A stretch of 64,000 nucleotides of DNA from an uncultured bacterium (GTDB lineage: Bacteria > Patescibacteriota > Minisyncoccia > Phycocordibacterales > UBA9973): assembly GCA_937903035.1 (NCBI GenBank), contig CALCZP010000002.1, positions 20,739 to 84,738 of the forward strand. Direction: 5' to 3'. A model generated the notes under the pieces. It was not told where the DNA came from. It did no database searches and saw only the letters and a list, made by a program, of their open reading frames with translations. Position numbers and translations under genes: made by a program. Positions 9,380-32,220 of the stretch are shown here, piece by piece. The stretch's first letter is position 1, and every line of letters starts with the position of its first letter.

Positions 9380-9390
9380 CAAATGATGCA

Positions 9391-10565: not shown

Positions 10566-10574
10566 AAAACCGAC

Positions 10575-10660
10575 TACTAACTTGTATTTGCATGTAGATA
10601 ATAGCGCCTGACACACTGAGTGAGACTTCTCAGCAGGCGACCTCATCTGCATACAAGTCA
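10575..10660. other. Nested imperfect inverted repeats (CTTGTATTTGCATGTAGAT ... ATCTGCATACAAG enclosing CGCCTG...CAGGCG). Candidate oriT, att or sRNA-like structured site
   Basis: Read directly. Lies upstream of the RHH-like small gene and the recombinase. Confidence 0.25.
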
Positions 10661-10792
10661 AGCAACTGTATCGAGATGTTTGCTATGAGGGGGTTGAAAC
10701 ATTTTGATAGATTTTTTGAAAAATTACTAATTTAACTATCCCAATCTGTAAAAAACCAATACAGATGAGGGAGGAAAAAGTCTAAACAAAAT

Positions 10793-11023: not shown

Positions 11024-11038
11024 TTATTTACTAATCAC

Positions 11039-12610
11039 ATGAATAAACCAACAAAAACAAAAGCCGTTATATATGCCAGAGTTTCTTCTAAAGAGCAGGA
11101 AGAAACTGGCTACTCATTAAACTCACAAGAGGAGCTTCTAAATAATTACTCAACAAGTCGAAACGACTTCAATGTAGTAAAAGTATTTAGGATTTCTGAG
11201 TCTGCGAGTGGGAAAATCCAGCGCACAACCTTTACTGAAATGATTAAGTTTATGGACAAGAATAAAATAAATATCCTTGTCTGTGAGAAAGTCGATCGAC
11301 TCACGAGAAACTTCAAAGATGCATTGATTATCGATGAATGGCTAGATCAGGATGAAAACCGACAGGTGCACTTGGTCAAGGACTCTCTAGTGATGCATAA
11401 GCATTCAAAATCGCAAGAAAAGCTTAACTGGGGTATTAGAATACTCTTCGCAAAAAATTACACAGACAATCTTTCTGAAGAAGTTAAAAAGGGTCAGAAG
11501 CAAAAAATAAAAGAGGGTTGGCTACCAACCACTCCTCCACTTGGTTATAAAACTGTAGGAGAAAAAGGACATAAAATCCATGTGATCGATGAGACTGTTG
11601 CACCCTATATAAAAGAAATGTTTGCCTTGTATGCCACAGGTAATTATTCAACAGTTGCGTTGGGAGAAAAAATGTACAAACAAGGCTTCCGAAGTCGATC
11701 AGGTGTTCAGGTAGTAAAAAGCCAAATACATAAAATACTCTCTGAGCCTTTTTATTACGGAAAACTTGTATGGAATGGAAATCTTTTTGAGGGCAAACAC
11801 GACCCACTTATCTCAAAAGATTTGTTTGATCAGGTTCAGGCAAAAATGTCTCGTGGTGCAATACCGTATCACAATAAAGGGCTTACTGAGTTAAGAGGTA
11901 AAATCTTCTGCGGTTCTTGTAATAAAACCGTTACTTGGGAATTACAAAAAGGCACTATGTATGGTGGTTGTAAGCAGTGTAAGGCACAGCTTGGCAAAGA
12001 TAAGAAGTATATCCACCAGGAAGACCTAGAAAGCGATCTACTGGCTCATATTGCCTCTGTAGCTCCTCTTAGTGAGAAAGTTATAGATGTGCTTAATCAG
12101 GCTTTAAAAGAGAGCCACAGTGAGGAAATAGGGCTACATGAGACTCAAACCAGGAACATCAACAATCAACTAGAAAGAATAAGGCAGAGAATGAAAAACA
12201 TGTACCTGGACAAGATTGATGAGAGAATAAGCGGAGACTTCTACGATGAGCAGGTCGCACAGTTTGCAGAAGAAAAAGAAGCATTACTCCACTCTCTGAA
12301 AAAACTCGAAGCAGATAATACTGAATACTACCGAGTTGGATTTATGATCCATGAGATTGCACTGAGAGCGAGAGAGATTTATCTCAATGAAAACGCATCG
12401 ATTGAAGAGCGCAGAATGCTTCTTGCTTATGCATTCTCGAACATCACTGTTTTAGCAGGAAATATAAAGGCAGAATACACAAAACCTTTTGCTTTTCTTG
12501 CAGAATGGATGCCAAGAGTAAATGAAGTTCTCGAACTGGAAAAAACCCTTGGTACAAAAGGAAAAGAGAGCACTTTCGTGCCCTCTCATCCTATCGTGCT
12601 CCCCCGGTAG
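11039..12610 (+). CDS. large serine recombinase (resolvase/invertase N-terminal catalytic domain, recombinase domain, zinc ribbon and coiled coil)
   Basis: N-terminal VIYARVSSKEQ with catalytic Ser, and DRLTRN. Zinc ribbon CGSCNK...CKQCK. 523 aa. The stop codon overlaps the tRNA-Asn 3' end. Confidence 0.9.
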   Translation: MNKPTKTKAVIYARVSSKEQEETGYSLNSQEELLNNYSTSRNDFNVVKVFRISESASGKIQRTTFTEMIKFMDKNKINILVCEKVDRLTRNFKDALIIDEWLDQDENRQVHLVKDSLVMHKHSKSQEKLNWGIRILFAKNYTDNLSEEVKKGQKQKIKEGWLPTTPPLGYKTVGEKGHKIHVIDETVAPYIKEMFALYATGNYSTVALGEKMYKQGFRSRSGVQVVKSQIHKILSEPFYYGKLVWNGNLFEGKHDPLISKDLFDQVQAKMSRGAIPYHNKGLTELRGKIFCGSCNKTVTWELQKGTMYGGCKQCKAQLGKDKKYIHQEDLESDLLAHIASVAPLSEKVIDVLNQALKESHSEEIGLHETQTRNINNQLERIRQRMKNMYLDKIDERISGDFYDEQVAQFAEEKEALLHSLKKLEADNTEYYRVGFMIHEIALRAREIYLNENASIEERRMLLAYAFSNITVLAGNIKAEYTKPFAFLAEWMPRVNEVLELEKTLGTKGKESTFVPSHPIVLPR

Positions 12611-12670
12611 GATTCGAACCTACGACCAATCGCTTAACAGGCGACTGCTCTACCGCTGAGCTACAGGGGA
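12599..12670 (-). tRNA. tRNA-Asn (anticodon GUU)
   Basis: Minus-strand sequence TCCCCTGTAGCTCAGCGGTAGAGCAGTCGCCTGTTAAGCGATTGGTCGTAGGTTCGAATCCTACCGGGGAG folds as a canonical cloverleaf (7-bp acceptor, GCTC/GAGC D-stem, anticodon loop CTGTTAA, T-loop TTCGAAT). It begins UCCCCUG like enterobacterial tRNA-Asn. No CCA is encoded. Confidence 0.85.
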
Positions 12671-21357: not shown

Positions 21358-23808
21358 ATGGCGAAAAAAGAAATTCCACTCCCTGTTGCAGCGCCACACG
21401 ACCAGATACTGCCGGTCAACATCGTCACTGAAATGCGCGTGAGCTTCATCGACTATGCGATGAGTGTTATTACTGATCGTGCACTTCCTGATGTGCGTGA
21501 TGGATTGAAGCCGGTGCACCGTCGTATTCTCTATGCGATGCATGAGTCAGGTCTCACCTCGAGTGCAAAGTTTCGTAAGTCAGCAACCGTCGTCGGTGAC
21601 GTGCTTGGTCGCTACCACCCGCACGGCGATACATCTGTATACGATGCGATGGTAAACATGGCGCAGGATTTCTCATACCGCTATCCACTCGTGCATGGTC
21701 AGGGTAACTTTGGATCTGTCGACGGTGACCCAGCTGCAGCAATGCGTTATACGGAGGCGCGTATGTCACGTATTGCAGGTGAAATGCTTCGCGATATCGA
21801 CAAGGATACGGTAGATTTTCGTCCCAACTACGATGCTACTCGCAAAGAGCCGACCGTGATGCCGACTGCAGTGCCAAGTCTTTTGCTCAACGGTACGCTC
21901 GGTATTGCGGTGGGTATGGCGACCAACATTGCGCCGCACAACTTGCGCGAGGTTATTGATGCCACTATTCACCTCATCGAGAACGATGATGCCACCAACG
22001 AAGATCTTGGTGAGATCGTCAAAGGTCCTGACTTTCCAACAGGAGGTATTGTCTACAACAAAAAGGATATCTTACATGCACTGGCAACCGGACGTGGTGG
22101 TGTGGTGTGTCGTGGTGAAGCAGAAATCAGTGAGACCAAAAACGGTGTATACAATATTGTTATCACCTCGCTCCCATACCGTGTCAACAAGTCAACATTC
22201 ATCGAATCAATGGCTGAGTTGGTACAAGAGAAAAAGATTGAAGGTATCAAGGATATCCAAGAGCTCTCAACCAAGGACACCCGTATCGTGGTTATTTTGA
22301 AATCAGGGGTCAATCCGCAAAAAGTTCTCAACTATTTGTACAAACACACACAGCTCGAGCAAACCTTCCACTACAACATGGTGGCACTTGTTGACGGTAC
22401 GCCGGAGACGCTGTCGCTCAAGTCAATGCTCACTGCATTTATCGGGCACCGAGAAGTTGTGGTTCGTCGTCGCACCGAGTACGATCTCAAACGTGCAAAA
22501 GAGCGTGAACATATCTTGCTCGGTCTCAAAAAGGCACTCGATCATATCGATCGTGTGATCACGATTATTCGTGGCTCAAAGGACGCCGCACTTGCGAAGC
22601 TCAACTTGATCAAAGAATTCCGATTCTCTGATCTCCAGGCTGATGCAATTCTTGAAATGCGTTTGCAGAAGCTCGCAGGTCTTGAGCGTAAAGCAGTTGA
22701 AAATGAGCTCAAAGAAAAGCAAGAGCTTATTGCAGAGCTCGAATCAATACTGAAGAGTGCAAAGAAAATTTTTGCGATTATTTCAAAAGAGCTTGCTGAA
22801 ATCCGTGACAAATACGGCGACGATCGCAAAACCAAAGTTGTTGCTGGTGGTATCAAAAATATTTCTGATGAAGATCTCGTACCTGAAAAAGACTCAGTGC
22901 TCGTATTTACCTCAGGTGGCTATGTTAAACGCACTGATCCAAGTGAGTACAAGACACAAAAACGTGGTGGTGTCGGTGTAGTTGATCTTGAAACTAAAGA
23001 AGAAGATTTTGTGACCCAACTCCTCACTGCTGATACACATAGTGATCTTCTATTTTTCACCAATATGGGTAAGGCATACCAAATCAAGATGTATGAACTC
23101 CCCGAAGGTCGTCGTGCAACAAAGGGTAAGTCCATCATGAACTTTCTCTCACTTGGTGCTGATGAGCGTGTTACCTCTATCTTGAGTGTGCCAAAGAAAC
23201 TCAAAGAAGAAAAAGCCTCTCTCATGCTTATCACCAAAATGGGTACTGCCAAAAAGGTATCATACGAGAGCTTCAAGGATGTTCGTCGCTCAGGTATTAT
23301 CGCAATCCGTCTCGACAAAGGTGACGAGCTCCAGACTGTGCTTCGTGTGCAGAAGGGGAGCAGCATCATTCTTGCGACAACCGAAGGTCAGTCGATCAGA
23401 TTTGCAGAGGACGACGTTCGCGAAATGGGACGAACTGCAGGTGGTGTTCGTGCGATCAAGCTTGGTAAAAAAGACGGTGTAATTGGTGCTGATGTAGTGA
23501 CCGATGAAAAAGCAGCACTCCTGACACTTGGTGCAAATGGTATTGGTAAAAAGACGCTGCTCTCTGAATACAAAATCCAAGGACGTGGTGGTTCTGGTAT
23601 TAAGACCGCAAAGATCACTCCAAAGACCGGTGAGCTCATGGTTGCGATGATTGTGCACAACGACACCGAGCTTGTAGCGATGTCCAAGAAAGGACAAGTG
23701 ATTCGTGTCGATCTCAACACCGTCCCCTCAAGTGGTCGTGACACCCAGGGTGTCACTATCATGAAGCTTCGTCCAGGTGACTCACTCGCATCTGTTACGT
23801 GTTTGTAA
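21358..23808 (+). CDS. gyrA: DNA gyrase subunit A
   Basis: Conserved gyrA block [21 protein letters not shown] with active-site Tyr. Long C-terminal beta-pinwheel repeats. 816 aa. Confidence 0.95.
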
Positions 23809-23828
23809 GACAGGATATTTACGCTTCA

Positions 23829-23978
23829 CAGCCGAGCTATATGTTACGTCCTCGCTAGCGCTGCGGGATGCAAAATATAGCTCGGCTATTTCGCTTCTTG
23901 TGACTCAAGAACGAAAAGAAGCCAGTACAAACTGCATCCCGCAGGTGACGAAGTTGACGAGGACGTAGTTTGTACTGG
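23829..23978 (+). ncRNA. Candidate cis-regulatory RNA / attenuator with four long, mutually exclusive helices: A 23830-42/23875-87; B 23844-54/23958-68; C 23861-72/23933-44; D 23922-32/23968-78. Plus inner hairpin E 23893-99/23916-22
   Basis: All pairings were verified base by base (11-13 bp each). Fold 1 = A+E+D, with D followed by UUUCUU (terminator-like). Fold 2 = B+C coaxial stack, which precludes D. Located between gyrA and the methyltransferase gene. Confidence 0.35.
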
Positions 23979-24031
23979 TTTCTTAAAGTAATGTACTCTA
24001 CTTTCTACTTCTCACTTGCTATACTCTACAC

Positions 24032-24556
24032 ATGTTCATGGATCCCATGCGCCTCATAGCACTGTGCAACTTGCAGTCGACTGACACAGTGGCTGACTTT
24101 GGTGCGGGTTCTGGATTCATTGCCCGTGCGCTTGCAAAATATGCACCGCAAGGTCAAGTCTTTGCAATCGAGATCAACCGCGATCTCGTGACACGACTCA
24201 CTCGTGAAGTGGCAGAAATGCATCTGACCAACATTCATCCAATTTGGGGTGATATTGAAATTCCTGGCGGATCAAAGCTTGCGAGTGATAGTGTGAACTT
24301 TGTCGTACTTTCAAATGTGATGTTTCATCTTGAAGACAAACAAGGATGTTTGAGAGAGATTAGTCGCGTATTGAAAAGTAATGGTCGAGTCCTTGTTGTT
24401 GATTGGCAAGAGTCATTTGGTGGTATGGGGCCTGCACCACATCAGATTGTGAATAGTCAGATGGCAGAAGAGCTCTTTACTCGAGCAGGATTCACTAAAC
24501 TCTCTGATGGGCTCTCAGGAGGCGATCATCATTATGCTATACTTTTCAAGAAGTAA
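24032..24556 (+). CDS. class I SAM-dependent methyltransferase
   Basis: Motif I VADFGAGSGFIARAL, followed by motif II/III-like acidic residues. 174 aa. Confidence 0.7.
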   Translation: MFMDPMRLIALCNLQSTDTVADFGAGSGFIARALAKYAPQGQVFAIEINRDLVTRLTREVAEMHLTNIHPIWGDIEIPGGSKLASDSVNFVVLSNVMFHLEDKQGCLREISRVLKSNGRVLVVDWQESFGGMGPAPHQIVNSQMAEELFTRAGFTKLSDGLSGGDHHYAILFKK

Positions 24557-24559
24557 ACG

Positions 24560-25870
24560 ATGAAACCAAACTTTCAAACAATCATTCTCATTGTGTTTAT
24601 CGTCGCATTTATTGGTGCGGTCTTGGCGTTCTCTGGTCTTATTGGTTCAAGTTCAACCACAACAACTAGCTCATCTGGTACAGCCCAGATTACTGTATGG
24701 GGCATCCTTCCCAACAACCAAATGCAACAGTATGTTGAGCGATTTAATACAAGTGGCAGTGGGTCAACTATTGTATATGTGGAGCGTGCGCCAGAAAATT
24801 TCTATCAAGATGTTATCACTGCTATCGCAAATGGTACTCCTCCAGATGCACTGATTCTTTCATCAGAACTTTTGTCGCAGTTTAAGTCACGGCTTTATAT
24901 TACGTCCTATCAAACCTACAATGAACGTACGTTTCGTGATACCAATGTTGATGGCGCGCAACTCTTTTTGGACAAGGACGGTGTCGTAGCATTCCCACTC
25001 CTTGTTGATCCGTTGGTTGTATATTACAACAAGGATATTCTTGCTTCACAAAATTTTGTCGTACCGCCGACAACATGGACAGACCTTCAGTCAACACTCC
25101 CATTTTTTCTGAAGCGTGATATCAAAAATGCTATTATCCAAACACCACTTGCGCTTGGAGATGCAACAAATGTGACACATGCTCGCGATATTTTATCAGC
25201 GCTTTTTCTCCAAACAGGTAACGCTATTGTTTCATATGATCCTATTTCAGGACAAAATGCGGCAGTGCTTGGTCGTTCTTCGGCAAACAGTACAACACTT
25301 CCTACTGCTGAAGCGTTGACGTTTTATACCAGCTTTTCAAATCCAACGAGTAGTAACTATACTTGGAACAGCTCACTGCCTTCGAGTCTACAAATGTTTT
25401 TGGCCGGAAGATCGGCGTTTTATATTGGTCGTTCGAGCGAGCTGTTTACTATCCAACAGCAAAATCCAAATTTAAACTTTGATGTTGCGCCATTCTTTCA
25501 GTCAGAAGCAGCTACTCGTCCGGTAACTTTCGGTTCTTTTGTTGCAATTGCATTACTCAAGAATTCTCCTAATATTGCAACGGCATATCCTACAGCACTC
25601 GCACTCTCTTCAAAAGAGAATATTGATACCTTTTCCAAAATATTTGGGTTGCCACCTGCTCGACGTGACTTACTACTGCTACAGCAGTCAAATCCTTATG
25701 TATCAATATTCTTCAAGGCAGCACTATCTGCATTTGCCTGGGCTGATCCTGATCCTATTGCTACAGAAAAAATCTTTCGTGATATGATACAGGATGTTAC
25801 CAGTGGTCGTGCTGACACCCAGTCAGTGATATTTGATGCAAACACTAACCTTCAATCAGCAATTCGCTAA
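24560..25870 (+). CDS. membrane-anchored extracellular solute-binding-protein-like protein
   Basis: N-terminal TM anchor, Ser/Thr-rich linker, then a ~380-aa domain with SBP (family-1)-like composition. Weak family call. Confidence 0.4.
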   Translation: MKPNFQTIILIVFIVAFIGAVLAFSGLIGSSSTTTTSSSGTAQITVWGILPNNQMQQYVERFNTSGSGSTIVYVERAPENFYQDVITAIANGTPPDALILSSELLSQFKSRLYITSYQTYNERTFRDTNVDGAQLFLDKDGVVAFPLLVDPLVVYYNKDILASQNFVVPPTTWTDLQSTLPFFLKRDIKNAIIQTPLALGDATNVTHARDILSALFLQTGNAIVSYDPISGQNAAVLGRSSANSTTLPTAEALTFYTSFSNPTSSNYTWNSSLPSSLQMFLAGRSAFYIGRSSELFTIQQQNPNLNFDVAPFFQSEAATRPVTFGSFVAIALLKNSPNIATAYPTALALSSKENIDTFSKIFGLPPARRDLLLLQQSNPYVSIFFKAALSAFAWADPDPIATEKIFRDMIQDVTSGRADTQSVIFDANTNLQSAIR

Positions 25871-25871
25871 A

Positions 25872-26453
25872 ATGTCTCGATGCATAGTGGGTATTGCTGT
25901 TATCGCATGTGCTCTTGTGGTCACTCCACTGCAGTATAGTGATCTTTCTGCACAAAATGTAACACAATGTAATGACGGTAAAGACAATCAGGTTGGTGAC
26001 GGTAAAGACTGGGGACTCGGAGTTAATAATGGTGATGGAAAAGCTGATTATTATGGCGTTGATACGACTACTCCTCCAGATGGCCAGCTCGATCTTGAAC
26101 CTGATCCAGCGTGTGTTTCAGTCAAAGACCCCACTGAAGACGCAGATGATGTTGTAAAGGGGAGTCTGATACCATGCACCAACAAATGTACTTTTTCGGA
26201 TGTGTTCAAGCTTATCAATGGGCTTTTGTCTTTTTTCATTAAAACCTTGTTGATTCCTATTTTCATCATTCTGTTGATGTATGCAGGCTTCAAATACATC
26301 ACTGCGCAAGGCAACCCTGCCAAAACAGCAAATCTCAAAAAAATGTTTGGCAATATGATACTCGGACTTGTACTTGTACTGTGCTCATGGCTCATCGTAC
26401 ATACCATCCTCAGTATGCTTGGGTATACGGAAGGTTTATCATTGTTTGGATAA
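25872..26453 (+). CDS. VirB2/TrbC-like (T4SS-pilin-like) surface protein, paralogue 1. Variable Cys/Asp-Gly-Lys-rich ectodomain plus a conserved C-terminal two-TM module
   Basis: C-terminal module TM1 (LLIPIFIILLMYAGFKYI), loop TAQGNPAKTANLKK, TM2 (MILGLVLVLCSWLIVHTIL). The same architecture is seen in the next four genes. Start moved to the Met at 25872 to avoid a 38-nt overlap. Confidence 0.5.
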   Translation: MSRCIVGIAVIACALVVTPLQYSDLSAQNVTQCNDGKDNQVGDGKDWGLGVNNGDGKADYYGVDTTTPPDGQLDLEPDPACVSVKDPTEDADDVVKGSLIPCTNKCTFSDVFKLINGLLSFFIKTLLIPIFIILLMYAGFKYITAQGNPAKTANLKKMFGNMILGLVLVLCSWLIVHTILSMLGYTEGLSLFG

Positions 26454-26472
26454 TACGATATACTGTAGTCAC

Positions 26473-26931
26473 ATGAATTTTTTGAAAAAAACTTTCTCAA
26501 TACTCATTATGCTCAGTTTTTTTCTCGGAGCATTTACTGTATCTCATTCTGTAGCTTTTGCGCAGGGGATAAAAAATACTGATCAAGCTCCAGGTATCAA
26601 AAATACTGATAAGTGTGACAGTCGCCTTGGCTGTACTTCTAGTGCAACTGTCTTCAAGCTCGGTATTAAGCTCAACAATCCGCTCAAGGTAAATACCATA
26701 CAGGATGCGATCAAGTTCTTCTTGAATACTATTATGAAGATTGCACTCCCGTTTATTGTTGTATTCTTTATTTGGTCGGGACTCAGTTTTATTCTTGCTC
26801 GTGGTAATCCTGAGGGTATCAAAAAAGCAAAAAACATGTTCCTCTATACAATTATTGGCACACTGCTTATTCTCGGAGCATGGGCGATTACGAACGCTAT
26901 TATCGGAACAGTTAATACTATTACGAGTTAA
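26473..26931 (+). CDS. VirB2/TrbC-like pilin-like protein, paralogue 2
   Basis: Signal peptide MNFLKKTFSILIMLSFFLGAFTVSHSVAFA. C-terminal module ...IVVFFIWSGLSFILARGNPEGIKKAKNMFLYTIIGTLLILGAWAI. Start trimmed from 26368. Confidence 0.5.
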   Translation: MNFLKKTFSILIMLSFFLGAFTVSHSVAFAQGIKNTDQAPGIKNTDKCDSRLGCTSSATVFKLGIKLNNPLKVNTIQDAIKFFLNTIMKIALPFIVVFFIWSGLSFILARGNPEGIKKAKNMFLYTIIGTLLILGAWAITNAIIGTVNTITS

Positions 26932-26933
26932 GT

Positions 26934-27863
26934 ATGAAATTCTTTAAGTATATATTTGTCAGCTTGCTTGTAGTGCTCCTATGTGCGACTTCGACCTATG
27001 CAGCGTATTGTGACGAACTTGGTCCTGATGATGATAGGACAGGCTGTATTGACCGTCCTACGCCTCCACCAACACCTCCAACAATGTCGAAGTATTGCGA
27101 GAGTTTTCTTGGTCCTGATAATACATTACCTCCAGCATGTGAAGCCAACCCGCTCTATGATCCTAATACATCAACAACATCCTCTTCTGGTACAACAGGA
27201 GGACCGAGAACAGTCACTGATCCAAAAGAGTCAGTTTGTAGACAACTGTATTTTCTGAGTGATGGGTGGTATATGGCTGGCTGTGCTTCGGTAAAGACAG
27301 GGGTGACGTATACGTTGGTGAGCGGATATTGTGCTGATCATGCGAAAGATTCTATTAGTGATCCCCACTGGCTCCGGCTTGGATGTGACGGTATCGTTCG
27401 ACCTACTACGGTACAAACTACAACCCCTGCTTCTGGCATGACTACAGGAGGGTCTTTCTCTACGTTACCACTCAATAGTAGCCAGCAAGCAACAACGCTC
27501 TCCAATACCGGAGGCACATCACAGTCAAGCTCATCAGCACTGGCACAATGTAGTGCAATCAGGTTTGCTTCATTGCTCGATATTATGATTTGGGTTAAAT
27601 GTGTGATAGTCATTGCAGTGATTCCACTCATCTTCACGCTTGCATTTGTGATCTTTCTTTGGGGTGTACTTCGCTTTATGTATGCATCCGACTCTAAGGA
27701 TAAGGAGGCCGCTAAAGGCTTTATTTGGTGGGGGTTGGTGGGACTCTTTGTGATGGTGTCAGTTTGGGGGATTATTCGTATTCTTGGTACGACACTTGGT
27801 ATCGACTCGACCGTTCCACTACTGCAGACCTCCGCACTCGATCCTAAAAAAGCTACCAAGTAG
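26934..27863 (+). CDS. VirB2/TrbC-like pilin-like protein, paralogue 3, with a long Cys-, Pro- and Ser/Thr-rich (mucin-like) ectodomain
   Basis: Signal peptide, then PTPPPTPP and T/S-rich tracts, then C-terminal module ...FVIFLWGVLRFMYASDSKDKEAAKGFIWWGLVGLFVMVSVWGII. Confidence 0.5.
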   Translation: MKFFKYIFVSLLVVLLCATSTYAAYCDELGPDDDRTGCIDRPTPPPTPPTMSKYCESFLGPDNTLPPACEANPLYDPNTSTTSSSGTTGGPRTVTDPKESVCRQLYFLSDGWYMAGCASVKTGVTYTLVSGYCADHAKDSISDPHWLRLGCDGIVRPTTVQTTTPASGMTTGGSFSTLPLNSSQQATTLSNTGGTSQSSSSALAQCSAIRFASLLDIMIWVKCVIVIAVIPLIFTLAFVIFLWGVLRFMYASDSKDKEAAKGFIWWGLVGLFVMVSVWGIIRILGTTLGIDSTVPLLQTSALDPKKATK

Positions 27864-27943
27864 TATCTATTGCAATACGCATCATGGTATACTATGGACA
27901 CCTGTGTTCGATTATCAGGTAATTTTAGAAGTAGTATTCATAT

Positions 27944-28336
27944 ATGAAAAATAAAGCATTCTCTCTCAGCGCATTTGCTGCAACACTCCTAGTACCTGCA
28001 CTTGCACTCGCACAAAACTTTGATTACGCGAACAAATGGATTGACCAGGGTCTCAAATGGCTCCGTCTCTCAATTACAATCATCATGATTGTAATGACCC
28101 TGTACTTCCTTCTTGGGGTATTTCGCTATATCAGTGAAAAAGATCCAACCAAGCTCAAGGATCGTCGTACTGTCGTGATCAACGGACTCATTGGTCTCTT
28201 TATTGCAGTGTCAGTATGGGGTATCATTCGCCTTGCTGGTACTACACTTGGTACAAGTTCACAAAACGGTTCAGTTGATATTGCATGCCCTCCTGGCTTG
28301 AAATTCAATCCGACAACTGGTGTTTGTGGAGTCTAA
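27944..28336 (+). CDS. VirB2/TrbC-like pilin-like protein, paralogue 4
   Basis: Signal peptide, then module ...MTLYFLLGVFRYISEKDPTKLKDRRTVVINGLIGLFIAVSVWGIIRLAGTTLG. Confidence 0.5.
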   Translation: MKNKAFSLSAFAATLLVPALALAQNFDYANKWIDQGLKWLRLSITIIMIVMTLYFLLGVFRYISEKDPTKLKDRRTVVINGLIGLFIAVSVWGIIRLAGTTLGTSSQNGSVDIACPPGLKFNPTTGVCGV

Positions 28337-28345
28337 TCACTAGCT

Positions 28346-28684
28346 ATGTTTGAAGTCATTGCCTATGCTGATGGCGTTGACAATCTCTTGTACAAACTCA
28401 ATGCAAAGATTATCAACCCACTGATCGAACTTTCGTTCATTGTTGCGCTTGTGGTGTTTCTCTGGGGGGTACTTCAGTTTATCCGTGGTGCAAATAATGA
28501 AGAAGCTCGAGCAAAAGGCAAGGATCATATGCTCTGGGGGTTTGTTGGTTTTCTGATCATGTTTGGTGTATTTGGGATCATCAACTTGTTGACTCGAACA
28601 CTTGGCATCAAAGGAACAACCTTGAACCAAAAAGAGCAAAAGTTTGAAGCTCCAACCATTCAGGAGCTCAAGCTCCCAAAATAG
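28346..28684 (+). CDS. VirB2/TrbC-like pilin-like protein, paralogue 5 (module only)
   Basis: ...LVVFLWGVLQFIRGANNEEARAKGKDHMLWGFVGFLIMFGVFGIINLL. No signal peptide. Confidence 0.45.
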   Translation: MFEVIAYADGVDNLLYKLNAKIINPLIELSFIVALVVFLWGVLQFIRGANNEEARAKGKDHMLWGFVGFLIMFGVFGIINLLTRTLGIKGTTLNQKEQKFEAPTIQELKLPK

Positions 28685-28714
28685 AAAAAACCCCGACTGA
28701 AAAGTCGGGGTTTT
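28685..28714. terminator. Terminator hairpin AAAAAACCCCGACT-GAAA-AGTCGGGGTTTT
   Basis: Perfect 9-bp stem with A/T runs on both sides. Closes the pilin-like array and the convergent minus-strand operon. Confidence 0.6.
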
Positions 28715-28717
28715 GGT

Positions 28718-29506
28718 TTATTGGGAAAGATCTACTTCGGTCCATACATCAATCAACATGTCAGTATCACTCATGATACGTATTTGTTCACCAGGGTATG
28801 CCCGGGCTGATCCTTCAAGAGGAATCGTAATTCCTTTACCATTTTTGTTGAGAAACTTCATTCTCCACTCGTGACCTCTACTGTTGGTAAAGGTCAGTAC
28901 GACTGAATCTCCACTCGTATGTGGCTTGAAGAATATAGCTTTTCCTTCAGGAGAATTAATAGCATACACTACTCCTTTGGAAATCATTGGTGTACCTTCA
29001 CTAAGTGTCGGAAGCGTGCTTCGTACAGTACTAGCTGATGCGGCATTATCTGCTGATCCTAATGAGAGCCGGAGCTTCATCACGGGCCATACAAACCATC
29101 CGATCAACGCCACAATTCCTAAACATATGGCAAGCTTGCCATAGTAGGTAGCACGCTTACTTTTCTTACCAAAGCTTGGTAGTGATGGCAGTTTCCAATT
29201 TTTCCCCCATAGTTTCCATACTAGGAAAAGCACAACAATACAACGAACAGTAAGTATACATACCTTCCAAGACCATATAGATATAAGCCATTTCAAGAAT
29301 AGATAGATTATATATAATCCAAAAAAACCAAAAATGACTAGTGCCATTACTCTAGGTAACTGCTTGGTAGGACTGTTTGTACCACTTATTTGACCTCTAC
29401 GAGGTGTGCCACTTTTTAGCTCTTTTGTTGCATACCAGATGGTGATGATAGCAAATAATAATACTATTGCTAGCAAAATTATTTGCCATGATAGATTAGT
29501 TTCCAT
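28718..29506 (-). CDS. membrane protein with a C-terminal beta-rich domain; possible NfeD-like partner of the upstream SPFH protein
   Basis: Several N-terminal TM helices. SD AAAGGAGTTGG lies before the ATG at 29506. ORF-track start 29536 trimmed. The NfeD assignment is inferred only from its pairing with the SPFH gene. Confidence 0.4.
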   Translation of the reverse strand: METNLSWQIILLAIVLLFAIITIWYATKELKSGTPRRGQISGTNSPTKQLPRVMALVIFGFFGLYIIYLFLKWLISIWSWKVCILTVRCIVVLFLVWKLWGKNWKLPSLPSFGKKSKRATYYGKLAICLGIVALIGWFVWPVMKLRLSLGSADNAASASTVRSTLPTLSEGTPMISKGVVYAINSPEGKAIFFKPHTSGDSVVLTFTNSRGHEWRMKFLNKNGKGITIPLEGSARAYPGEQIRIMSDTDMLIDVWTEVDLSQ

Positions 29507-30611
29507 TGCCAACTCCTTTTGTTGCAATATTCGCAACTAATTGTTTAACAATAGGATTACCTTCATCAGTACCTGTTGTAACCAATGTTGTAACTTTGTT
29601 TTGTTGCAATGCTACAGCTACTTTTGTTTCGTCCACCAGAGCCTTATCTGCTTTTTGGAATTCAATTACTTTGGCAAGTTTAAGTCCAAGGACTTCTGCT
29701 TCTTTTGTTCCGACAGTTTCCGTTTTTTCCGCAGCAATGGTAATCTCAGCTTTACCTTTGATTGTTATTGCTTCTGCGTCAGCTTCAGCATTGATTTTAG
29801 TCTGCTTAGCTATTTCCGTGCGTACATCAGTAGTGATTTTTTGGACACTTTTCTCCTGGCGAGCTTTAATAATACTCTCCGAACCTTTTGAGAGGATTAC
29901 ATCCTCAGGCAGCAAAGTATCAATGATAAACAAATCTTTTGGAAATGTTGTTTTTTGATTTATGTCAATAACGATTAATTCGCAATCGTTATTTACACCA
30001 CCTTTTGTGGCACCTTGCAGTTCTTCAAGTTCTTTCTCGCGAAGTTTTTTCCCAATTTCTGTCTTGAGTAAATCTTCTACATAAGAGAGAAAGTTGCCGG
30101 AAGGGTATGCAGACATAATACCTTTTGCATCAAGAATGCGAAGCACAAATTTAAAGACGATTTGTACTTCAGCACCATCTGAGCTGACGATTTTGATATC
30201 AAAAGGATGAACCTCTCGATCCAAGAGAAACCATTGATCATTGCGTGATCGTCTGACGAGACACATTGACTGGGTTTCTACCATTTTTTTACCATCATTT
30301 TTACCATTATCAGTGGTACTTTTTTCCACTTCCTTTTTATAGGTTAATAGTGGTATGAGATTTTTTTTAGCCGCATCCTGTTCAGTCATTAATTGCTTCC
30401 ATACAAAAGGGAACGTAAATATACGTTCTATGTACGGTAATAAAATAATGTTGCCAAACAAAAAGGGGACAGGGCTGTTATTGTCCAGATAGATTGAGTC
30501 GGCTACCACGTTACCCTGAGAAACCAAATAGTGAAAACCTCTTCGAGGTGAAAAGAATAGGGTCCAACGACTAGGTGCTGAACCTTGCGGGAGAAGGAAT
30601 TCTGTTTCCAT
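29496..30611 (-). CDS. SPFH/band-7 (flotillin/prohibitin-like) domain protein
   Basis: SPFH-like core followed by a Glu/Ala/Lys-rich coiled coil (KINAEADAEAITIKGKAEITIAAEK) typical of flotillin-like proteins. The N-terminal boundary is uncertain. Confidence 0.55.
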   Translation of the reverse strand: METEFLLPQGSAPSRWTLFFSPRRGFHYLVSQGNVVADSIYLDNNSPVPFLFGNIILLPYIERIFTFPFVWKQLMTEQDAAKKNLIPLLTYKKEVEKSTTDNGKNDGKKMVETQSMCLVRRSRNDQWFLLDREVHPFDIKIVSSDGAEVQIVFKFVLRILDAKGIMSAYPSGNFLSYVEDLLKTEIGKKLREKELEELQGATKGGVNNDCELIVIDINQKTTFPKDLFIIDTLLPEDVILSKGSESIIKARQEKSVQKITTDVRTEIAKQTKINAEADAEAITIKGKAEITIAAEKTETVGTKEAEVLGLKLAKVIEFQKADKALVDETKVAVALQQNKVTTLVTTGTDEGNPIVKQLVANIATKGVGNGN

Positions 30612-30683
30612 ATATTATTTTTTTATTGTGAATGAATGATTTTGTTTGAATAAACTATATCACAAATATATAAAAATGTCAAT

Positions 30684-30715
30684 AAAAAATCCCACCGATT
30701 TGTGTCGGTGGGATT
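30684..30715 (-). terminator. Terminator hairpin AATCCCACCGA...TCGGTGGGATT with a T-run on the minus strand, after gene 30732-31217
   Basis: 11-bp perfect stem. Confidence 0.55.
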
Positions 30716-30731
30716 GTCTTTTTGCATGCTT

Positions 30732-31217
30732 TTACAAGCTACCTTTGTAGGATGATTGACCTGCTGATTCAGGTGTTTCTGCAACATCGACCCAATATTC
30801 AGTAAGCCAGTTGTCCCTGTACTTTAGAAGATCTTGTTCTTGTTCAGGAACAAAATCAGGACTTGCAAATCTGCAGGTTATGAGTACTTTGATGGCAAAG
30901 TACTTCGTTCCATCAACGGCTACAAGCGGCCTTACTGCCTTTATAGTTCGTGCTTGGCCTTCGGTCAGACGTATCGGAATACCAATTACTTGATAGGCTG
31001 TTCCGTTGTCGCTCATTTGTTTAAAATAAGCAGTGATCTGACCACCTGTTGGTTCTGCAAACAGGTATACTGTTGCGTTGATCCTTGCACGGTGTTGTAT
31101 TTGCCTATAGCCGGAAAGTCCATCAAAGATGTTGAACTTAAGCTCAGGCGGAGTCGTTTGTGCGTTTGCTGATGTAATAGATGCAATAAAGATGATAAAG
31201 AACAATACCTTTTTCAT
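30732..31217 (-). CDS. secreted hypothetical protein (signal peptide MKKVLFFIIFIASITSANA)
   Basis: Sec signal; no known domain. Confidence 0.5.
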   Translation of the reverse strand: MKKVLFFIIFIASITSANAQTTPPELKFNIFDGLSGYRQIQHRARINATVYLFAEPTGGQITAYFKQMSDNGTAYQVIGIPIRLTEGQARTIKAVRPLVAVDGTKYFAIKVLITCRFASPDFVPEQEQDLLKYRDNWLTEYWVDVAETPESAGQSSYKGSL

Positions 31218-31367
31218 AAGTGAAAATTTTTATAGGTGAGTTAATGAAATCTGAATACATCATATCATATATAGTATATTTGTCAAGTACCTGAGAATCC
31301 TCAAAAAAGCTTGATAGGGCAGGTGAAATACGGTATTATGGTGCGTACCCATAAGGTCTTGTGTATT

Positions 31368-31449
31368 GCTGGAGTGGCGGAATTGGTATACGCGCTAGTC
31401 TTAGGAACTAGTGCCGCAAGGCTTAAGGGTTCAAGTCCCTTCTCCAGCA
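31368..31449 (+). tRNA. tRNA-Leu (anticodon UAG), class II with a long variable arm
   Basis: GCTGGAG/CTCCAGC acceptor stem, anticodon loop CTTAGGA, variable hairpin GCC-GCAA-GGC, T-arm AAGGG-TTCAAGT-CCCTT. Confidence 0.8.
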
Positions 31450-31465
31450 CAGTTTAAATTAATAT

Positions 31466-31538
31466 GCTCCTATAGCTCAGTTGGTAGAGCAGCTCCCTCT
31501 TAAGGAGACGGTCGTGGGTTCGAATCCCTCTGGGGGCA
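31466..31538 (+). tRNA. tRNA-Lys (anticodon CUU)
   Basis: GCTCCTA/TGGGGGC acceptor stem (two G-U pairs), D-arm TAGCTCAGTTGGTAGAGC, anticodon loop CTCTTAA, T-loop TTCGAAT. One T-T mismatch in the T-stem. Confidence 0.7.
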
Positions 31539-31550
31539 CTATAGATATAC

Positions 31551-31592
31551 AAAACAAAAAACACTAAATATATTTAGTGTTTTTTGTTTTGT
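31551..31592. terminator. Perfect 21-bp AT-rich palindrome (CAAAACAAAAAACACTAAATA|TATTTAGTGTTTTTTGTTTTG) between convergent tRNA genes. Bidirectional terminator-like
   Basis: Read directly. Confidence 0.45.
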
Positions 31593-31595
31593 ATT

Positions 31596-31620
31596 GGGGG
31601 CGGGACTCGAACCCGCACGC
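31596..31620 (-). repeat. 25-nt duplicate of the tRNA-Leu(UAA) 3' end (T-arm plus acceptor: GTGCGGGTTCGAGTCCCGCCCCCA). No 5' half is foldable, so this is a partial tRNA and a candidate att-site scar
   Basis: Identical to 31664-31688 (plus-strand coordinates). The 40 nt between the copies do not form D or anticodon arms. Confidence 0.5.
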
Positions 31621-31660
31621 CGTATAAGGGCAAGGGATTTTAGTAATTTCACCACCACAG

Positions 31661-31743
31661 TGCTGGGGGCGGGACTCGAACCCGCACGGCATTGCTGCCT
31701 GAGGATTTTAAGTCCTCTATGTCTACCATTCCATCATCCCAGC
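31661..31743 (-). tRNA. tRNA-Leu (anticodon UAA), class II
   Basis: Minus strand GCTGGGATGATGGAATGGTAGACATAGAGGACTTAAAATCCTCAGGCAGCAATGCCGTGCGGGTTCGAGTCCCGCCCCCAGCA. Anticodon stem GAGGA/TCCTC, loop CTTAAAA, variable hairpin GGCA-GCAA-TGCC. One A-C mismatch at the base of the acceptor stem. Confidence 0.7.
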
Positions 31744-31813
31744 ACTCTGGAGGCGAAACAAAAATCTCCCGATGTACATTCCATCATCAATTTCACCTAA
31801 AAGGACATTTTGG

Positions 31814-31885
31814 AGACCCGAGCGAGAATCGAACTCGCGAATAGTTCTTTTGCAGAGAACCGCCTTACCACTTGGCCATCGGGTC
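31814..31885 (-). tRNA. tRNA-Cys (anticodon GCA)
   Basis: Minus strand GACCCGATGGCCAAGTGGTAAGGCGGTTCTCTGCAAAAGAACTATTCGCGAGTTCGATTCTCGCTCGGGTCT. Perfect acceptor, anticodon and T stems. Confidence 0.85.
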
Positions 31886-31890
31886 ACTAG

Positions 31891-32220
31891 TTATTGATCG
31901 CTTCTCAAAAGCGCGTCTATATTCTGACGGGCTTTCTCTCCAGTGTCAATCATGATGTCGAGGAATGGCACGGGGTGGATGCCGAGCTCTTTCATAGCGA
32001 TTTGTTTCAATGCTTTACGCTTGCGCTTGAGAAAGTTGATAGCTGACTCTTCGCCGGATGCCGGGAGGACGGACACATAGATTGTTGCTCTCTTGCCGCG
32101 ACTATAGAGCTCAACACGAGTAATGGTGATCATCGCGCTCTTATTGCTCTCGCTTTCGATGAAGCGAGCAGCAATTTCACGAATGCGTTCTTCGATTTTA
32201 GCATTTCGTTCTGCTGCCAT
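31891..32220 (-). CDS. rbfA: ribosome-binding factor A
   Basis: KIEERIREIAARFIE...ITITRVELYSRGKRATIYVSVL matches RbfA. It lies downstream of infB, the usual order. Confidence 0.85.
   Translation of the reverse strand: MAAERNAKIEERIREIAARFIESESNKSAMITITRVELYSRGKRATIYVSVLPASGEESAINFLKRKRKALKQIAMKELGIHPVPFLDIMIDTGEKARQNIDALLRSDQ

What the first reader, a model, noticed from the sequence alone, without database searches (positions are those of the whole stretch)
25872..28684. Tandem array of five VirB2/TrbC-like (T4SS-pilin-like) paralogues with hypervariable ectodomains
Five consecutive same-strand genes share a conserved C-terminal module: TM helix, short Gly/Lys loop (for example AQGNPAKTANLKK, ARGNPEGIKKAK, ASDSKDKEAAKG), then a second TM helix. 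Their N-terminal extracellular regions differ widely: Asp-Gly-Lys repeats, Cys-rich, Pro-rich linker, Ser/Thr mucin-like tract, or none. In CPR-like episymbionts such arrays are candidates for surface appendage or host-attachment variability. The upstream solute-binding-like gene (24560-25870) may be part of the locus.
Basis: partly seen in the sequence, partly recalled or inferred. Interest (0 to 1): 0.65.

Follow-up and report, generated by a model that had tools for sequence, protein, structure and literature searches.

The report
Five-gene VirB2-like pilin operon, CPR
Five neighbouring genes in this ultra-small (CPR/Patescibacteria) bacterium encode relatives of the small membrane "pilin" proteins of type IV secretion systems; such arrays are already described for this phylum, but here the five copies prove to be an ancient, fixed set of distinct subunits rather than interchangeable variants.

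Summary
Five same-strand genes (25836/25872-28684) share a C-terminal two-helix membrane hairpin with a short basic loop and have unlike N-terminal regions. All five hit Pfam PF18895 (T4SS_pilin) best: three above the curated cut-off, two just below. PF04956 (TrbC/VirB2) hits are weak.

Patescibacteria VirB2-like pilin arrays of 2-11 genes were found in 383 assemblies, and the array is essential in Southlakia epibionticum.

New here:
- In 11 Paceibacteria-type genomes the array always has exactly five genes in the same order, with position-for-position orthology.
- Each orthogroup has its own architecture. p1-p3 carry fast-evolving ectodomains. p4 has a CPPG...C tail. p5 has no signal peptide.
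- The array always sits directly downstream of, and often overlaps, a membrane-anchored MalE-like oligosaccharide-binding protein gene. It ends at a strong bidirectional terminator.
- No VirB4, VirB6 or type IV pilus gene lies in the 64 kb window or 10 kb to its left.

This favours five non-redundant subunits of one assembly over an antigenic-variation cassette. Whether they form an extracellular pilus is untested. Verdict: new member of a known kind, moderate interest.

The parts
24032..24556 (+). Class I SAM-dependent methyltransferase. It ends 3 nt before the SBP gene, so it is probably the first gene of the same transcription unit. A functional link to the pilins is not shown.
   Evidence: Pfam Methyltransf_31/11/25, E 1e-13 to 1e-16. 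It is conserved directly upstream of the SBP gene in all related loci.
24560..25870 (+). Membrane-anchored solute-binding protein of the MalE-like oligosaccharide type: N-terminal TM helix, Ser/Thr-rich linker, then the SBP fold. No ABC permease or ATPase gene is nearby.
   Evidence: Pfam SBP_bac_8 E 1.6e-18 and SBP_bac_1 E 2.5e-14. A profile of 34 orthologues hits sugar SBPs in the PDB. The AF2 model has pLDDT 85 with helix 5-24 and a disordered stretch 25-40. Foldseek gives E ~1e-21 and TM 0.7-0.8 to maltodextrin-, mannooligosaccharide- and sophorooligosaccharide-binding proteins. It is always immediately upstream of p1.
25836..26453 (+). p1 (g1): signal peptide, about 90-aa Asp/Gly/Lys-repeat ectodomain with Cys, then the VirB2-like hairpin.
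   Evidence: PF18895 35.0 bits (cut-off 26.6) and TrbC E 0.013. The L014 orthologue has no internal ATG and starts at the upstream position. Module dN is 0.07 against 0.27 for the N-terminal region.
26473..26931 (+). p2 (g2): signal peptide, about 45-aa variable region, then the most conserved hairpin of the set (NPLKV..TIQDAIK..ARGNP..).
   Evidence: PF18895 40.1 bits and TrbC 20.0 bits. Module identity to orthologues is 71-78%, with 30 invariant columns in 32 orthologues. AF2 gives a hairpin H76-108/H113-151 at pLDDT ~90.
26934..27863 (+). p3 (g3): signal peptide, about 185-aa ectodomain rich in Cys (10), Pro and Ser/Thr, then the hairpin and a 14-aa tail.
   Evidence: PF18895 23.7 bits, below the cut-off, but the L007 orthologue scores 29.2 bits. 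Its module resembles g5 (z=24) and g4 (z=20). The ectodomain cannot be aligned with the L014 orthologue (dN 0.81) although the module is 90% identical.
27944..28336 (+). p4 (g4): signal peptide, hairpin, then a 21-aa C-terminal tail carrying a conserved two-Cys CPPG...C loop.
   Evidence: PF18895 19.7 bits and TrbC 19.4 bits, both below cut-off; NF045849 E 5e-5. It is 94-95% identical to L014 over its full length. The CPPG..C tail is present in all 11 genomes.
28346..28684 (+). p5 (g5): no signal peptide. It has a short acidic N-terminus (..AYAD.VD.LL.KLN), the hairpin, and a conserved 19-aa tail (..QKF.AP.IQEL.LPK).
   Evidence: PF18895 32.7 bits; NF045849 35.8 bits, E 5e-9. The lack of a signal peptide and both termini are conserved in all 11 genomes.
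28687..28714 (.). Bidirectional intrinsic-terminator hairpin (12-bp stem, AAAACCCCGACT-GAAA-AGTCGGGGTTTT) between the stop of p5 and the stop of the convergent gene 28718-29536. It marks the end of the operon.
   Evidence: Terminator scan, found on both strands. No comparable hairpin lies between g1 and g5.

Best explanation
This is a chromosomal operon of a Paceibacteria-type CPR/Patescibacteria bacterium: probably methyltransferase, SBP, then p1-p5. It encodes five distinct, non-redundant VirB2/TrbC-like (Pfam PF18895) membrane hairpin subunits.

Shown:
- The five are homologous to one another and to PF18895.
- Each is a separate ancient orthogroup, kept in the same order in 11 genomes.
- Their hairpin modules are under strong purifying selection.
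- The N-terminal ectodomains of p1-p3 change rapidly in sequence and length.

Inferred:
- p1-p4 are exported by Sec signal peptides. p5 inserts without one through its short acidic N-tail.
- All sit in the cytoplasmic membrane with the N- and C-termini outside and the Lys/Arg-rich loop inside, as VirB2 and TraA do before assembly.
- They are then assembled together into one heteromeric pilus-like or conduit structure. The assembling machine would be the MPF-FATA-like, VirB4-driven T4SS that Patescibacteria encode elsewhere (near dnaA in Paceibacteria, according to PMC12102498).
- The small p4 and p5 would provide the core. The ectodomain-bearing p1-p3 would provide exposed, host-facing surfaces.
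- The co-transcribed, membrane-anchored oligosaccharide-type SBP probably works at the same cell surface.
For: Family assignment:
- PF18895 is the best Pfam hit for all five, three of them above the cut-off.
- TrbC/VirB2 matches 27 of 32 p2 orthologues, best E 1.5e-7.
- NCBIfam 'pilin-like conjugal transfer protein' of Mycoplasma ICEs hits four of the five at E 5e-9 to 5e-5.

Architecture:
- Signal peptide plus two TM helices.
- AF2 predicts a helical hairpin at pLDDT ~90.
- The loops carry 3-5 Lys/Arg. Cys pairs occur only in the N-terminal regions and the p4 tail, as expected for extracellular parts.

Non-redundancy:
- Exactly five genes in each of 11 genomes.
- In the eight related genome and Logan loci compared, every position matches the same window position best: 43-94% identity on the diagonal (L014 90-94%) against 16-46% off it.
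- Orthogroup-specific tails are conserved in all 11 genomes.
- Module dN is 0.05-0.08 with dS saturated.

Operon structure:
- Gaps of -35/+1, 19, 2, 80 and 9 nt, and a terminator directly after p5.
- SBP-p1 overlap, or a 2-nt gap, in the relatives where genes were called.

Fast ectodomains:
- dN is 0.27, 0.64 and 0.81 for p1, p2 and p3, against 0.026 for GyrA.
- Between L008 and L012 the modules are 92-99% identical but the N-terminal regions only 46-76%.
- Some orthologues carry PKD or weak fn3 domains.

Natural fusions place two to 17 such hairpins in one polypeptide. One joins a p3/p4-like hairpin to a hairpin 54% identical to p5. This argues that different hairpins pack side by side.

Literature: the series of pilins in the S. 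epibionticum T4SS locus is essential (PMC10633639; PMC12857230), and arrays are widespread in the phylum (PMC12102498).
Against: - No VirB4, VirB6, VirB3, VirB8 or VirD4 gene lies in the 64 kb window or in the 10 kb to its left. The link to a T4SS therefore rests on family name and literature, not on this locus.
- A profile of 32 p2 orthologues finds no solved pilin in the PDB.
- g3 and g4 fall below the PF18895 cut-off, and all five fall below the TrbC and NF045849 cut-offs.
- Monoderm T4SSs are not known to make pili, and no pilus of this kind has been seen in any Patescibacterium.
- The whole HisRS-to-ClpB neighbourhood is syntenic, so adjacency of the SBP (or of the methyltransferase) is weak evidence of a functional link.
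Confidence: 0.6

Rival explanations
1. Variation cassette. The five genes are interchangeable major-pilin variants, as proposed for the VirB2 paralogues of Bartonella and Anaplasma. They would be used alternately to evade recognition or to match different host strains.
For: The paralogues differ greatly in their exposed N-terminal regions. The ectodomains of p1-p3 evolve 10-30 times faster than GyrA. PMC12102498 raises this idea for Patescibacteria arrays.
Against: Position-for-position orthology and a constant copy number of five hold in 11 genomes whose GyrA is only ~79% identical. Each module is under strong purifying selection. Each orthogroup has its own conserved tail, and p5 never has a signal peptide. 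There are no long DNA repeats, invertible segments or simple-sequence tracts that could drive switching or gene conversion; the longest inter-paralogue DNA match is 61 nt at 77%. Five independent assemblies are 100% identical over the array. The pilin series is essential in S. epibionticum (PMC10633639).
Confidence: 0.12
2. Membrane-resident assembly or anchor, not a filament. The hairpins stay in the cytoplasmic membrane. There they form a hetero-oligomeric ring or channel part of a translocon, or simply anchor the p1-p3 ectodomains on the cell surface. No extracellular pilus is made.
For: Single polypeptides with 5-17 fused hairpins exist, for example P0242 with a signal peptide plus six hairpins. 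These would be hard to extract and polymerise as pilin monomers. Four of the five proteins resemble the 'pilin-like' protein of wall-less Mycoplasma ICEs. Monoderm T4SSs generally lack pili (PMC12102498, PMC12857230). No assembly machinery is nearby. The fold is a plain TM hairpin.
Against: Sequence relatedness is to pilin families. The conserved extracellular tails of p4 and p5 and the large ectodomains fit exposed surfaces equally well. Both termini face outward, so fused hairpins could still occupy neighbouring positions in a filament. Nothing here tests localisation.
Confidence: 0.22
3. The five proteins are accessory membrane components of an SBP-dependent sugar uptake system. They would replace or assist missing ABC permease subunits and would have nothing to do with type IV secretion.
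For: The array is co-transcribed with, and often overlaps, a MalE-like SBP gene, and no permease or ATPase gene is nearby.
Against: The module matches pilin families and no transporter family. The same family forms arrays without any SBP in Peregrinibacteria (L013) and inside the T4SS cluster of Saccharibacteria (PMC10633639). Two-helix hairpins with large variable ectodomains are unlike ABC permeases.
Confidence: 0.04

Closest known systems
Patescibacteria VirB2-like pilin arrays (Pfam PF18895 T4SS_pilin): Quinonero-Coronel et al. 2025 (PMC12102498); essential pilin series of Southlakia epibionticum ML1 (Wang et al. 2023, PMC10633639; six pilins according to PMC12857230); 'Sec-secreted array' of TM7x
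   Same: Same Pfam family, same phylum and same tandem same-strand arrangement. Identity between paralogues is low: 13-24% full-length identity to g1 and 17-42% between modules here, against a reported average of 25%. The signal peptide plus two-TM hairpin architecture is the same.
   Different: This array is not in or near a virB4 cluster: none lies within about 35 kb on either side. The paper reports that pilin genes are near virB4 in 1135 of 1948 assemblies, so distant ones are also known. The lineage here is Paceibacteria-type, whereas arrays were reported as most abundant in Microgenomatia and Saccharimonadia. The strict five-orthogroup collinearity and the coupling to an SBP gene are not mentioned in the passages of that paper I read.
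TrbC/VirB2 conjugative pilins of diderm T4SSs (Pfam PF04956; Agrobacterium VirB2, RP4 TrbC, F TraA)
   Same: Small preproteins with a signal peptide and two hydrophobic helices joined by a short basic loop. Weak but repeated sequence matches align over profile positions ~35-98.
   Different: All window proteins score below the family cut-off. There are long N-terminal ectodomains (p1-p3) and C-terminal tails (p4, p5), and p5 has no signal peptide. The host is a monoderm. There are five distinct paralogues instead of one major pilin, and no adjacent VirB machinery. No similarity to solved pilins was detected by sequence profile or fold search.
Mbov_0395 family pilin-like conjugal transfer protein of Mycoplasma ICEs (NCBIfam NF045849)
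   Same: An 80-residue hairpin profile matches g5, g2, g1 and g4 nearly end to end (E 4.9e-9, 1.7e-7, 1.3e-5 and 5.3e-5). It is also a component of an MPF-FATA-type system in a bacterium without an outer membrane.
   Different: Scores of 22.8-35.8 bits are below the equivalog cut-off of 40. The Mycoplasma protein is a single gene inside a mobile ICE, not a chromosomal five-gene set.
VirB2 paralogue arrays of Bartonella and Anaplasma (antigenic or host-range variation)
   Same: Tandem amplification of VirB2-like genes with divergent exposed parts.
   Different: Here the paralogues are ancient, collinear, individually conserved and architecturally distinct, with no copy-number change among 11 genomes. 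That does not fit a variation cassette.
Type IV pilus (T4P) major and minor pilin sets
   Same: A functional analogy only: several distinct small subunits encoded together, some carrying adhesive domains.
   Different: No N-terminal methylation motif and no PF07963 hit at E <= 1. The fold is a two-TM hairpin rather than a single N-terminal helix plus globular head.

Membership tests
Pfam PF18895 T4SS_pilin (Patescibacteria VirB2-like pilins) | Score at or above the curated gathering cut-off (26.6 bits) | tested here: met
   g1 scores 35.0, g2 40.1 and g5 32.7 bits, all above the cut-off. g3 (23.7) and g4 (19.7) are below it, though PF18895 is still their best hit. g3 and g4 are tied to g5 by pairwise z = 24 and 9.5, and the p3 orthologue of L007 passes with 29.2 bits.
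Pfam PF18895 T4SS_pilin (Patescibacteria VirB2-like pilins) | Two TM helices joined by a short charged loop, usually preceded by a signal peptide | tested here: met
   Hydropathy segments, alignment and the AF2 hairpin H76-108/H113-151 at pLDDT ~90. p5 lacks the signal peptide in all 11 genomes.
Pfam PF18895 T4SS_pilin (Patescibacteria VirB2-like pilins) | Occurrence in Patescibacteria, commonly as tandem arrays | tested here: met
   Homologues are named Paceibacterota, Nomurabacteria or Patescibacteria. A five-gene array is present in every relative. The literature reports arrays of 2-11 genes (PMC12102498).
Pfam PF04956 TrbC/VirB2 conjugative pilins | Score at or above the gathering cut-off (27.9 bits) | tested here: not met
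   g2 scores 20.0, g4 19.4 and g1 16.1 bits; g3 and g5 have no hit. Remote homology is still supported: 27 of 32 p2 orthologues hit at E <= 0.01, best 1.5e-7.
Pfam PF04956 TrbC/VirB2 conjugative pilins | Encoded within a T4SS gene cluster (VirB4, VirB6, VirB3 and others) | tested here: not met
   Pfam scans of all substantial ORFs of the window and the gene list 10 kb to the left show none. Look-ups beyond the right end failed. The rest of the genome could not be reached.
Pfam PF04956 TrbC/VirB2 conjugative pilins | Fold matches solved pilins (VirB2, TraA, TrwL) better than unrelated hairpins | tested here: inconclusive
Pfam PF04956 TrbC/VirB2 conjugative pilins | Polymerises into an extracellular pilus (with phospholipid), dependent on VirB4 | not testable with these tools
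   Needs microscopy or biochemistry.
NCBIfam NF045849 Mbov_0395 pilin-like conjugal transfer protein (Mycoplasma ICE) | Score at or above the equivalog cut-off (40 bits) | tested here: not met
   g5 scores 35.8, g2 30.8, g1 24.7 and g4 22.8 bits; g3 has no hit. The proteins are related but not members.
Type IV pilus (T4P) pilins | N-terminal prepilin methylation motif (PF07963) and a single N-terminal hydrophobic helix | tested here: not met
   No N_methyl hit at E <= 1 for any of the five. Each has two C-terminal TM helices instead.
Antigenic-variation type VirB2 paralogue arrays (Bartonella/Anaplasma-like) | Lineage-specific amplification, variable copy number, interchangeable paralogues | tested here: not met
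   Constant number and order, and 1:1 orthology, hold across 11 genomes. No recombination or switching repeats were found.
ABC-transporter solute-binding proteins, MalE-like sugar class (upstream gene) | SBP_bac_1/8 profile match and two-lobe SBP fold | tested here: met
   Pfam E 1.6e-18 and 2.5e-14. Foldseek E ~1e-21 and TM 0.7-0.8 to oligosaccharide SBPs.
ABC-transporter solute-binding proteins, MalE-like sugar class (upstream gene) | Adjacent cognate permease and ATPase genes | tested here: not met
   None in the window.

The most novel reading that the evidence does not exclude
The five VirB2-like proteins are obligate partners of one heteromeric surface structure. This structure is genetically uncoupled from the VirB4 cluster and is co-transcribed with a membrane-anchored oligosaccharide-binding protein. 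On this reading p4 and p5 form the core, the fast-evolving ectodomains of p1-p3 provide host specificity, and the SBP acts as a receptor for host-derived glycans. That would make it a pilin-plus-SBP host-contact or uptake device, an arrangement not described for any T4SS. The natural multi-hairpin fusions (up to 17 modules in one chain) would then show that the family builds side-by-side hairpin assemblies rather than classical one-subunit pili.
Probability: 0.12. Interest if true: 0.8.

Novelty: new member of a known kind. Interest (0 to 1): 0.4.

Why it matters
The role of the Patescibacteria T4SS is described in a 2024 perspective as 'completely unknown', although it is essential for epibiotic growth in the one species tested. 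VirB2-like pilins in a monoderm are its most unusual feature. The published speculation is that multiple pilins serve antigenic or host-range variation. This locus shows instead that, in a Paceibacteria lineage, five pilin paralogues are ancient, collinear, individually conserved and architecturally specialised. That points to a multi-subunit assembly. It also gives concrete candidates for core subunits (p4, p5, p2) and host-facing subunits (p1-p3). The array adds two testable leads: a conserved partnership with an oligosaccharide-type SBP, and natural hairpin fusions. It does not reveal a new kind of system.

Tried and rejected
- A profile of 32 p2 orthologues against PDB sequences gave no hits even at E <= 10.
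- Extending the view beyond the right end of the window. Exact-protein look-ups of three right-end ORFs found nothing on record. The left extension worked but showed only housekeeping genes.
- Finding VirB4 in the same or sister genomes. This remains untested.
- Naming the organism. The cluster look-up returned no names or accessions.
- Strain-level variation. Five other assemblies are 100% identical over the array, so they carry no information.
- Phase-variation or recombination signals. The repeat, inverted-repeat and tandem-repeat scans show nothing beyond chance-level short matches. Promoter-like sites are not enriched over shuffles.
- The three convergent downstream genes (28718-31217, - strand) have no match in Pfam, NCBIfam, PHROGs or PDB sequences.
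- Holin, GPCR and DUF hits of the five proteins are all below cut-off. I put them down to hydrophobic composition and rejected them.
- Type IV pilus pilin identity is rejected: there is no N_methyl motif.


Full report
**1. What is there**

The + strand between 25.8 and 28.7 kb carries five tightly packed ORFs:
- g1/p1, 25872-26453. An in-frame ATG at 25836 is the more likely start, because the orthologue in relative L014 has no internal ATG and public gene calls start there.
- g2/p2, 26473-26931.
- g3/p3, 26934-27863.
- g4/p4, 27944-28336.
- g5/p5, 28346-28684.

The gaps between them are 19, 2, 80 and 9 nt. With the 25836 start, p1 overlaps the upstream solute-binding protein (SBP) gene (24560-25870) by 35 nt. 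The SBP gene itself starts 3 nt after a methyltransferase gene (24032-24556).

A 12-bp-stem hairpin followed by a T run, readable on both strands, lies at 28687-28714. It sits between the stop of p5 and the stop of a convergent gene. The transcription unit is therefore most simply (methyltransferase)-SBP-p1-p2-p3-p4-p5.

**2. The shared module is real**

Every protein ends in two hydrophobic helices separated by a 12-15-residue loop carrying 3-5 Lys/Arg. p1-p4 also have an N-terminal signal-peptide-like segment; p5 does not.

Module similarity was compared with 300 composition-preserving shuffles:
- 8 of 10 pairs exceed chance: g3-g5 z=24, g3-g4 z=20, g1-g2 z=13, g2-g5 z=11.
- g1-g3 and g1-g5 are linked only through g2.

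AlphaFold2 on g2 with 32 orthologues gives a signal-peptide helix, a disordered stretch at 24-75, and a helix-loop-helix at 76-151 with pLDDT ~90.

**3. Family assignment**

- PF18895 (T4SS_pilin) is the best Pfam hit of all five. g1, g2 and g5 score 35.0, 40.1 and 32.7 bits against a cut-off of 26.6. g3 and g4 score 23.7 and 19.7 bits.
- PF04956 (TrbC/VirB2) hits g2, g4 and g1 below its cut-off, over the same part of the profile.
- Of 32 p2 orthologues, all match PF18895 and 27 match TrbC at E <= 0.01, best 1.5e-7.
- NCBIfam's 'Mbov_0395 family pilin-like conjugal transfer protein' from Mycoplasma ICEs matches g5, g2, g1 and g4 at E 5e-9 to 5e-5, below its equivalog cut-off.
- No prepilin methylation motif is present, so these are not type IV pilus pilins.
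- A profile of the five modules finds 53,350 cluster representatives at E <= 1e-3 among 1.84 billion proteins, so this is a very large family.

**4. Organism and neighbourhood**

Homologues of p2 and of the SBP come from MAGs labelled Paceibacterota, Nomurabacteria or Patescibacteria.

The window is ordinary chromosome. It encodes pyruvate kinase, HisRS, signal peptidase, S1, GyrA, IF2, ClpB, GluRS, TrmD and RpoB/RpoC. A low-GC mobile island occupies 1-12.6 kb.

No VirB4, VirB6, VirB3, VirB8, VirD4 or type IV pilus gene is present. None appears in the window or in the 10 kb to its left. The right-side extension failed.

**5. Relatives: a fixed set of five**

Related loci came from three sources: a scan of GTDB species genomes with g2 (L006-L012, plus a Peregrinibacteria locus L013), and exact-protein look-ups (L014, L015, L019, L020).

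All Paceibacteria-type loci share the order S1, MBL-fold, GyrA, methyltransferase, SBP, five module genes, then three convergent unknown genes. RbfA, IF2 and DUF4446 follow wherever the contig reaches that far. GyrA is ~79% identical in most loci and 97% in L014.

An HMM of the five window modules finds exactly five tandem module ORFs in each locus and none elsewhere in the window. In L006-L012 and L014, position i always matches window position i best:
- On the diagonal, identity is 43-78% in L006-L012 and 90-94% in L014.
- Off the diagonal it is 16-46%.

The five genes are therefore five old orthogroups in a fixed order, not recent duplicates. The Peregrinibacteria array (four to five genes) shows no such one-to-one relation.

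**6. Each orthogroup has its own architecture**

| Orthogroup | Length (aa) | Features |
|---|---|---|
| p1 | 137-432 | N-terminal region of 48-339 aa |
| p2 | 118 to ~375 | Most conserved module (mean 74% identity); N-terminal region of 39-296 aa |
| p3 | 217-309 | Cys-rich; 19-32% Ser/Thr |
| p4 | 125-144 | Only a signal peptide before the module; C-terminal CPPG...C two-Cys loop in all 11 genomes |
| p5 | 109-116 | Never a signal peptide; starts ..AYAD.(V/L)D.LL(F/Y)KLN; conserved tail ..Q(Q/K)(T/K)F.(P/A)P..(Q/K)(E/Q)L..P(K/N/E) |

Some orthologues carry Ig-like domains in the ectodomain: a PKD domain at E 3e-22 in one p2, and weak fn3 in others.

**7. Evolutionary rates**

Against L014, module dN is 0.05-0.08 and GyrA is 0.026, while dS is saturated at 1-3. 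The N-terminal regions have dN 0.27 (p1), 0.64 (p2) and 0.81 (p3, essentially unalignable; 309 against 271 aa). p4 and p5 are 92-95% identical end to end.

A second close pair, L008 and L012, shows the same pattern: modules 92-99% identical, N-terminal regions 46-76%.

So 'hypervariable ectodomains' holds for p1-p3 only. Whether selection is positive cannot be said, because dS is saturated. Five other assemblies of the same organism are 100% identical over the array. No repeats, invertible segments or simple-sequence tracts that might drive switching were found.

**8. The SBP**

The SBP has an N-terminal TM helix, a Ser/Thr-rich disordered linker and a confident two-lobe fold (pLDDT 85). The fold matches oligosaccharide-binding proteins at Foldseek E ~1e-21 and TM 0.7-0.8. 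The matches bind maltodextrin, cyclic maltosyl-maltose, mannooligosaccharides and beta-1,2-glucooligosaccharides (sequence-profile support).

No permease or ATPase gene is nearby. The SBP gene is adjacent to p1 in every relative. At least 24 further SBP homologues share their 'longest contig' length with a p2 homologue, which is indirect evidence of co-occurrence. Because the whole region is syntenic, adjacency alone is weak evidence of a shared function. The overlap of the reading frames is the stronger hint.

**9. Comparison with the literature**

- Quinonero-Coronel et al. 2025 (PMC12102498) searched 3,035 Patescibacteria genomes with PF18895, PF04956 and CONJScan profiles. They found VirB2-like pilins in 1,948 assemblies that also contain VirB4, near virB4 in 1,135 of them. 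They found 441 arrays of 2-11 pilin genes in 383 assemblies, with a mean identity of 25% within an array. They suggested host-range or antigenic versatility as the role.
- Wang et al. 2023 (PMC10633639) showed that the series of pilins inside the T4SS cluster of S. epibionticum is essential.
- A 2025 review (PMC12857230) counts six sequence-divergent VirB2-like pilins in that cluster and speculates about a pilus acting as a conduit.

The finding is therefore a new member of a described kind. The passages I read do not mention the strict five-orthogroup collinearity, the orthogroup-specific architectures, the SBP coupling or the multi-hairpin fusions. I did not read every supplement, so I cannot claim these are unreported.

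**10. Mechanism**

The best reading is five non-redundant VirB2-like subunits. They would be inserted with both termini outside and the basic loop inside. This topology is inferred from three things: the positive-inside rule, the restriction of Cys pairs to N-terminal regions and the p4 tail, and the signal peptides. The subunits would be assembled together by a T4SS encoded elsewhere. p4 and p5 (and perhaps p2) would form the core, and p1-p3 would be the exposed, fast-evolving host-facing parts.

Natural fusions support side-by-side packing of different hairpins:
- P0261 is a signal peptide, a p3/p4-like hairpin, and a hairpin 54% identical to p5.
- P0242 is a signal peptide plus six hairpins.
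- Other proteins have up to 17 module stretches in one chain.

The same fusions also feed the main rival, that the hairpins form a membrane-resident assembly rather than an extracted, polymerised pilus. Nothing available here separates these two readings. The variation-cassette reading is disfavoured by sections 5-7.

**11. Verdict**

It is a new member of a known kind. Interest is moderate, because the conserved five-subunit structure and the SBP link sharpen an open question: what the Patescibacteria T4SS pilins do.

Noticed in passing
window 1-12670: Low-GC (36-39%) island. It carries an OLD-family nuclease (4770-6617, - strand), an HpaII-type C5 methylase and endonuclease pair (6662-8675), a LOOT RNA (RF03000, 8754-8877, 74 bits) and a large serine recombinase (11039-12610) abutting tRNA-Asn (12598-12670). 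It looks like an integrated mobile or defence element.
   Followed up: partly
window 28718-31217 (- strand): Three convergent genes of 272, 371 and 161 aa have no match in Pfam, NCBIfam, PHROGs or PDB sequences. Genes of similar size occupy the same position in the five relatives where genes were called (237-315, 358-434 and 148-185 aa). They diverge extremely fast: the middle one is only 35% identical to L014, where GyrA is 97% identical. The first has about four TM helices and a C-terminal soluble domain. The third has a signal peptide.
   Followed up: partly
proteins P0241-P0261 (not in the window): Single polypeptides contain 2-17 tandem copies of the pilin hairpin module. P0242 (555 aa) is a signal peptide plus six hairpins. 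P0243 (1775 aa) has 17 matched stretches. P0261 (188 aa) fuses a p3/p4-like hairpin to a p5-like one. These are natural 'poly-pilin' fusions. Their processing or assembly is unknown, and I did not find them mentioned in the passages I read.
   Followed up: partly
L013:3272-14853 (Peregrinibacteria MAG JABJMC010000015.1): A PF18895 array of four to five genes (6840-9437) lies directly downstream of a 353-aa T2SSE-family ATPase (PilT- or VirB11-like). It is close to a T2SSF gene and an N_methyl prepilin gene. No VirB4-type hit was found in the ORFs scanned.
   Followed up: partly
L019:15385-20441 (JGI 3300045972 contig Ga0485829_0000033): In one relative, a tyrosine integrase and several further genes are inserted about 3 kb downstream of the array. 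These include a 434-aa TraG/VirD4-like protein and a 1034-aa DUF87/TrwB/TraG-type ATPase. This is an ICE-like element at the variable spot next to the array.
   Followed up: no
window 42494-45934 (+): A 1146-aa protein combines a right-handed beta-helix region with an LCAT/lipase-like alpha/beta-hydrolase domain. It is a candidate secreted lipid-attacking enzyme in an organism expected to depend on host lipids.
   Followed up: no
window 23808-24032: Two imperfect inverted repeats (23830-23887 and 23916-23984; 22-24-nt arms, 86-88% complementary) lie in the gap between gyrA and the methyltransferase gene. That is where the promoter or regulator of the SBP-pilin operon would be expected.
   Followed up: no
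window 24000-32000: The SBP-pilin-unknown gene block is 40-43% GC, against 45-47% in the flanking housekeeping DNA.
   Followed up: no
window 28271-28336 (C-terminus of p4): The conserved CPPG...C tail of p4 gave a weak hit to the chitin-binding peritrophin-A motif CBM_14 (E 0.026, below cut-off). The two-Cys loop is present in all 11 orthologues.
   Followed up: partly
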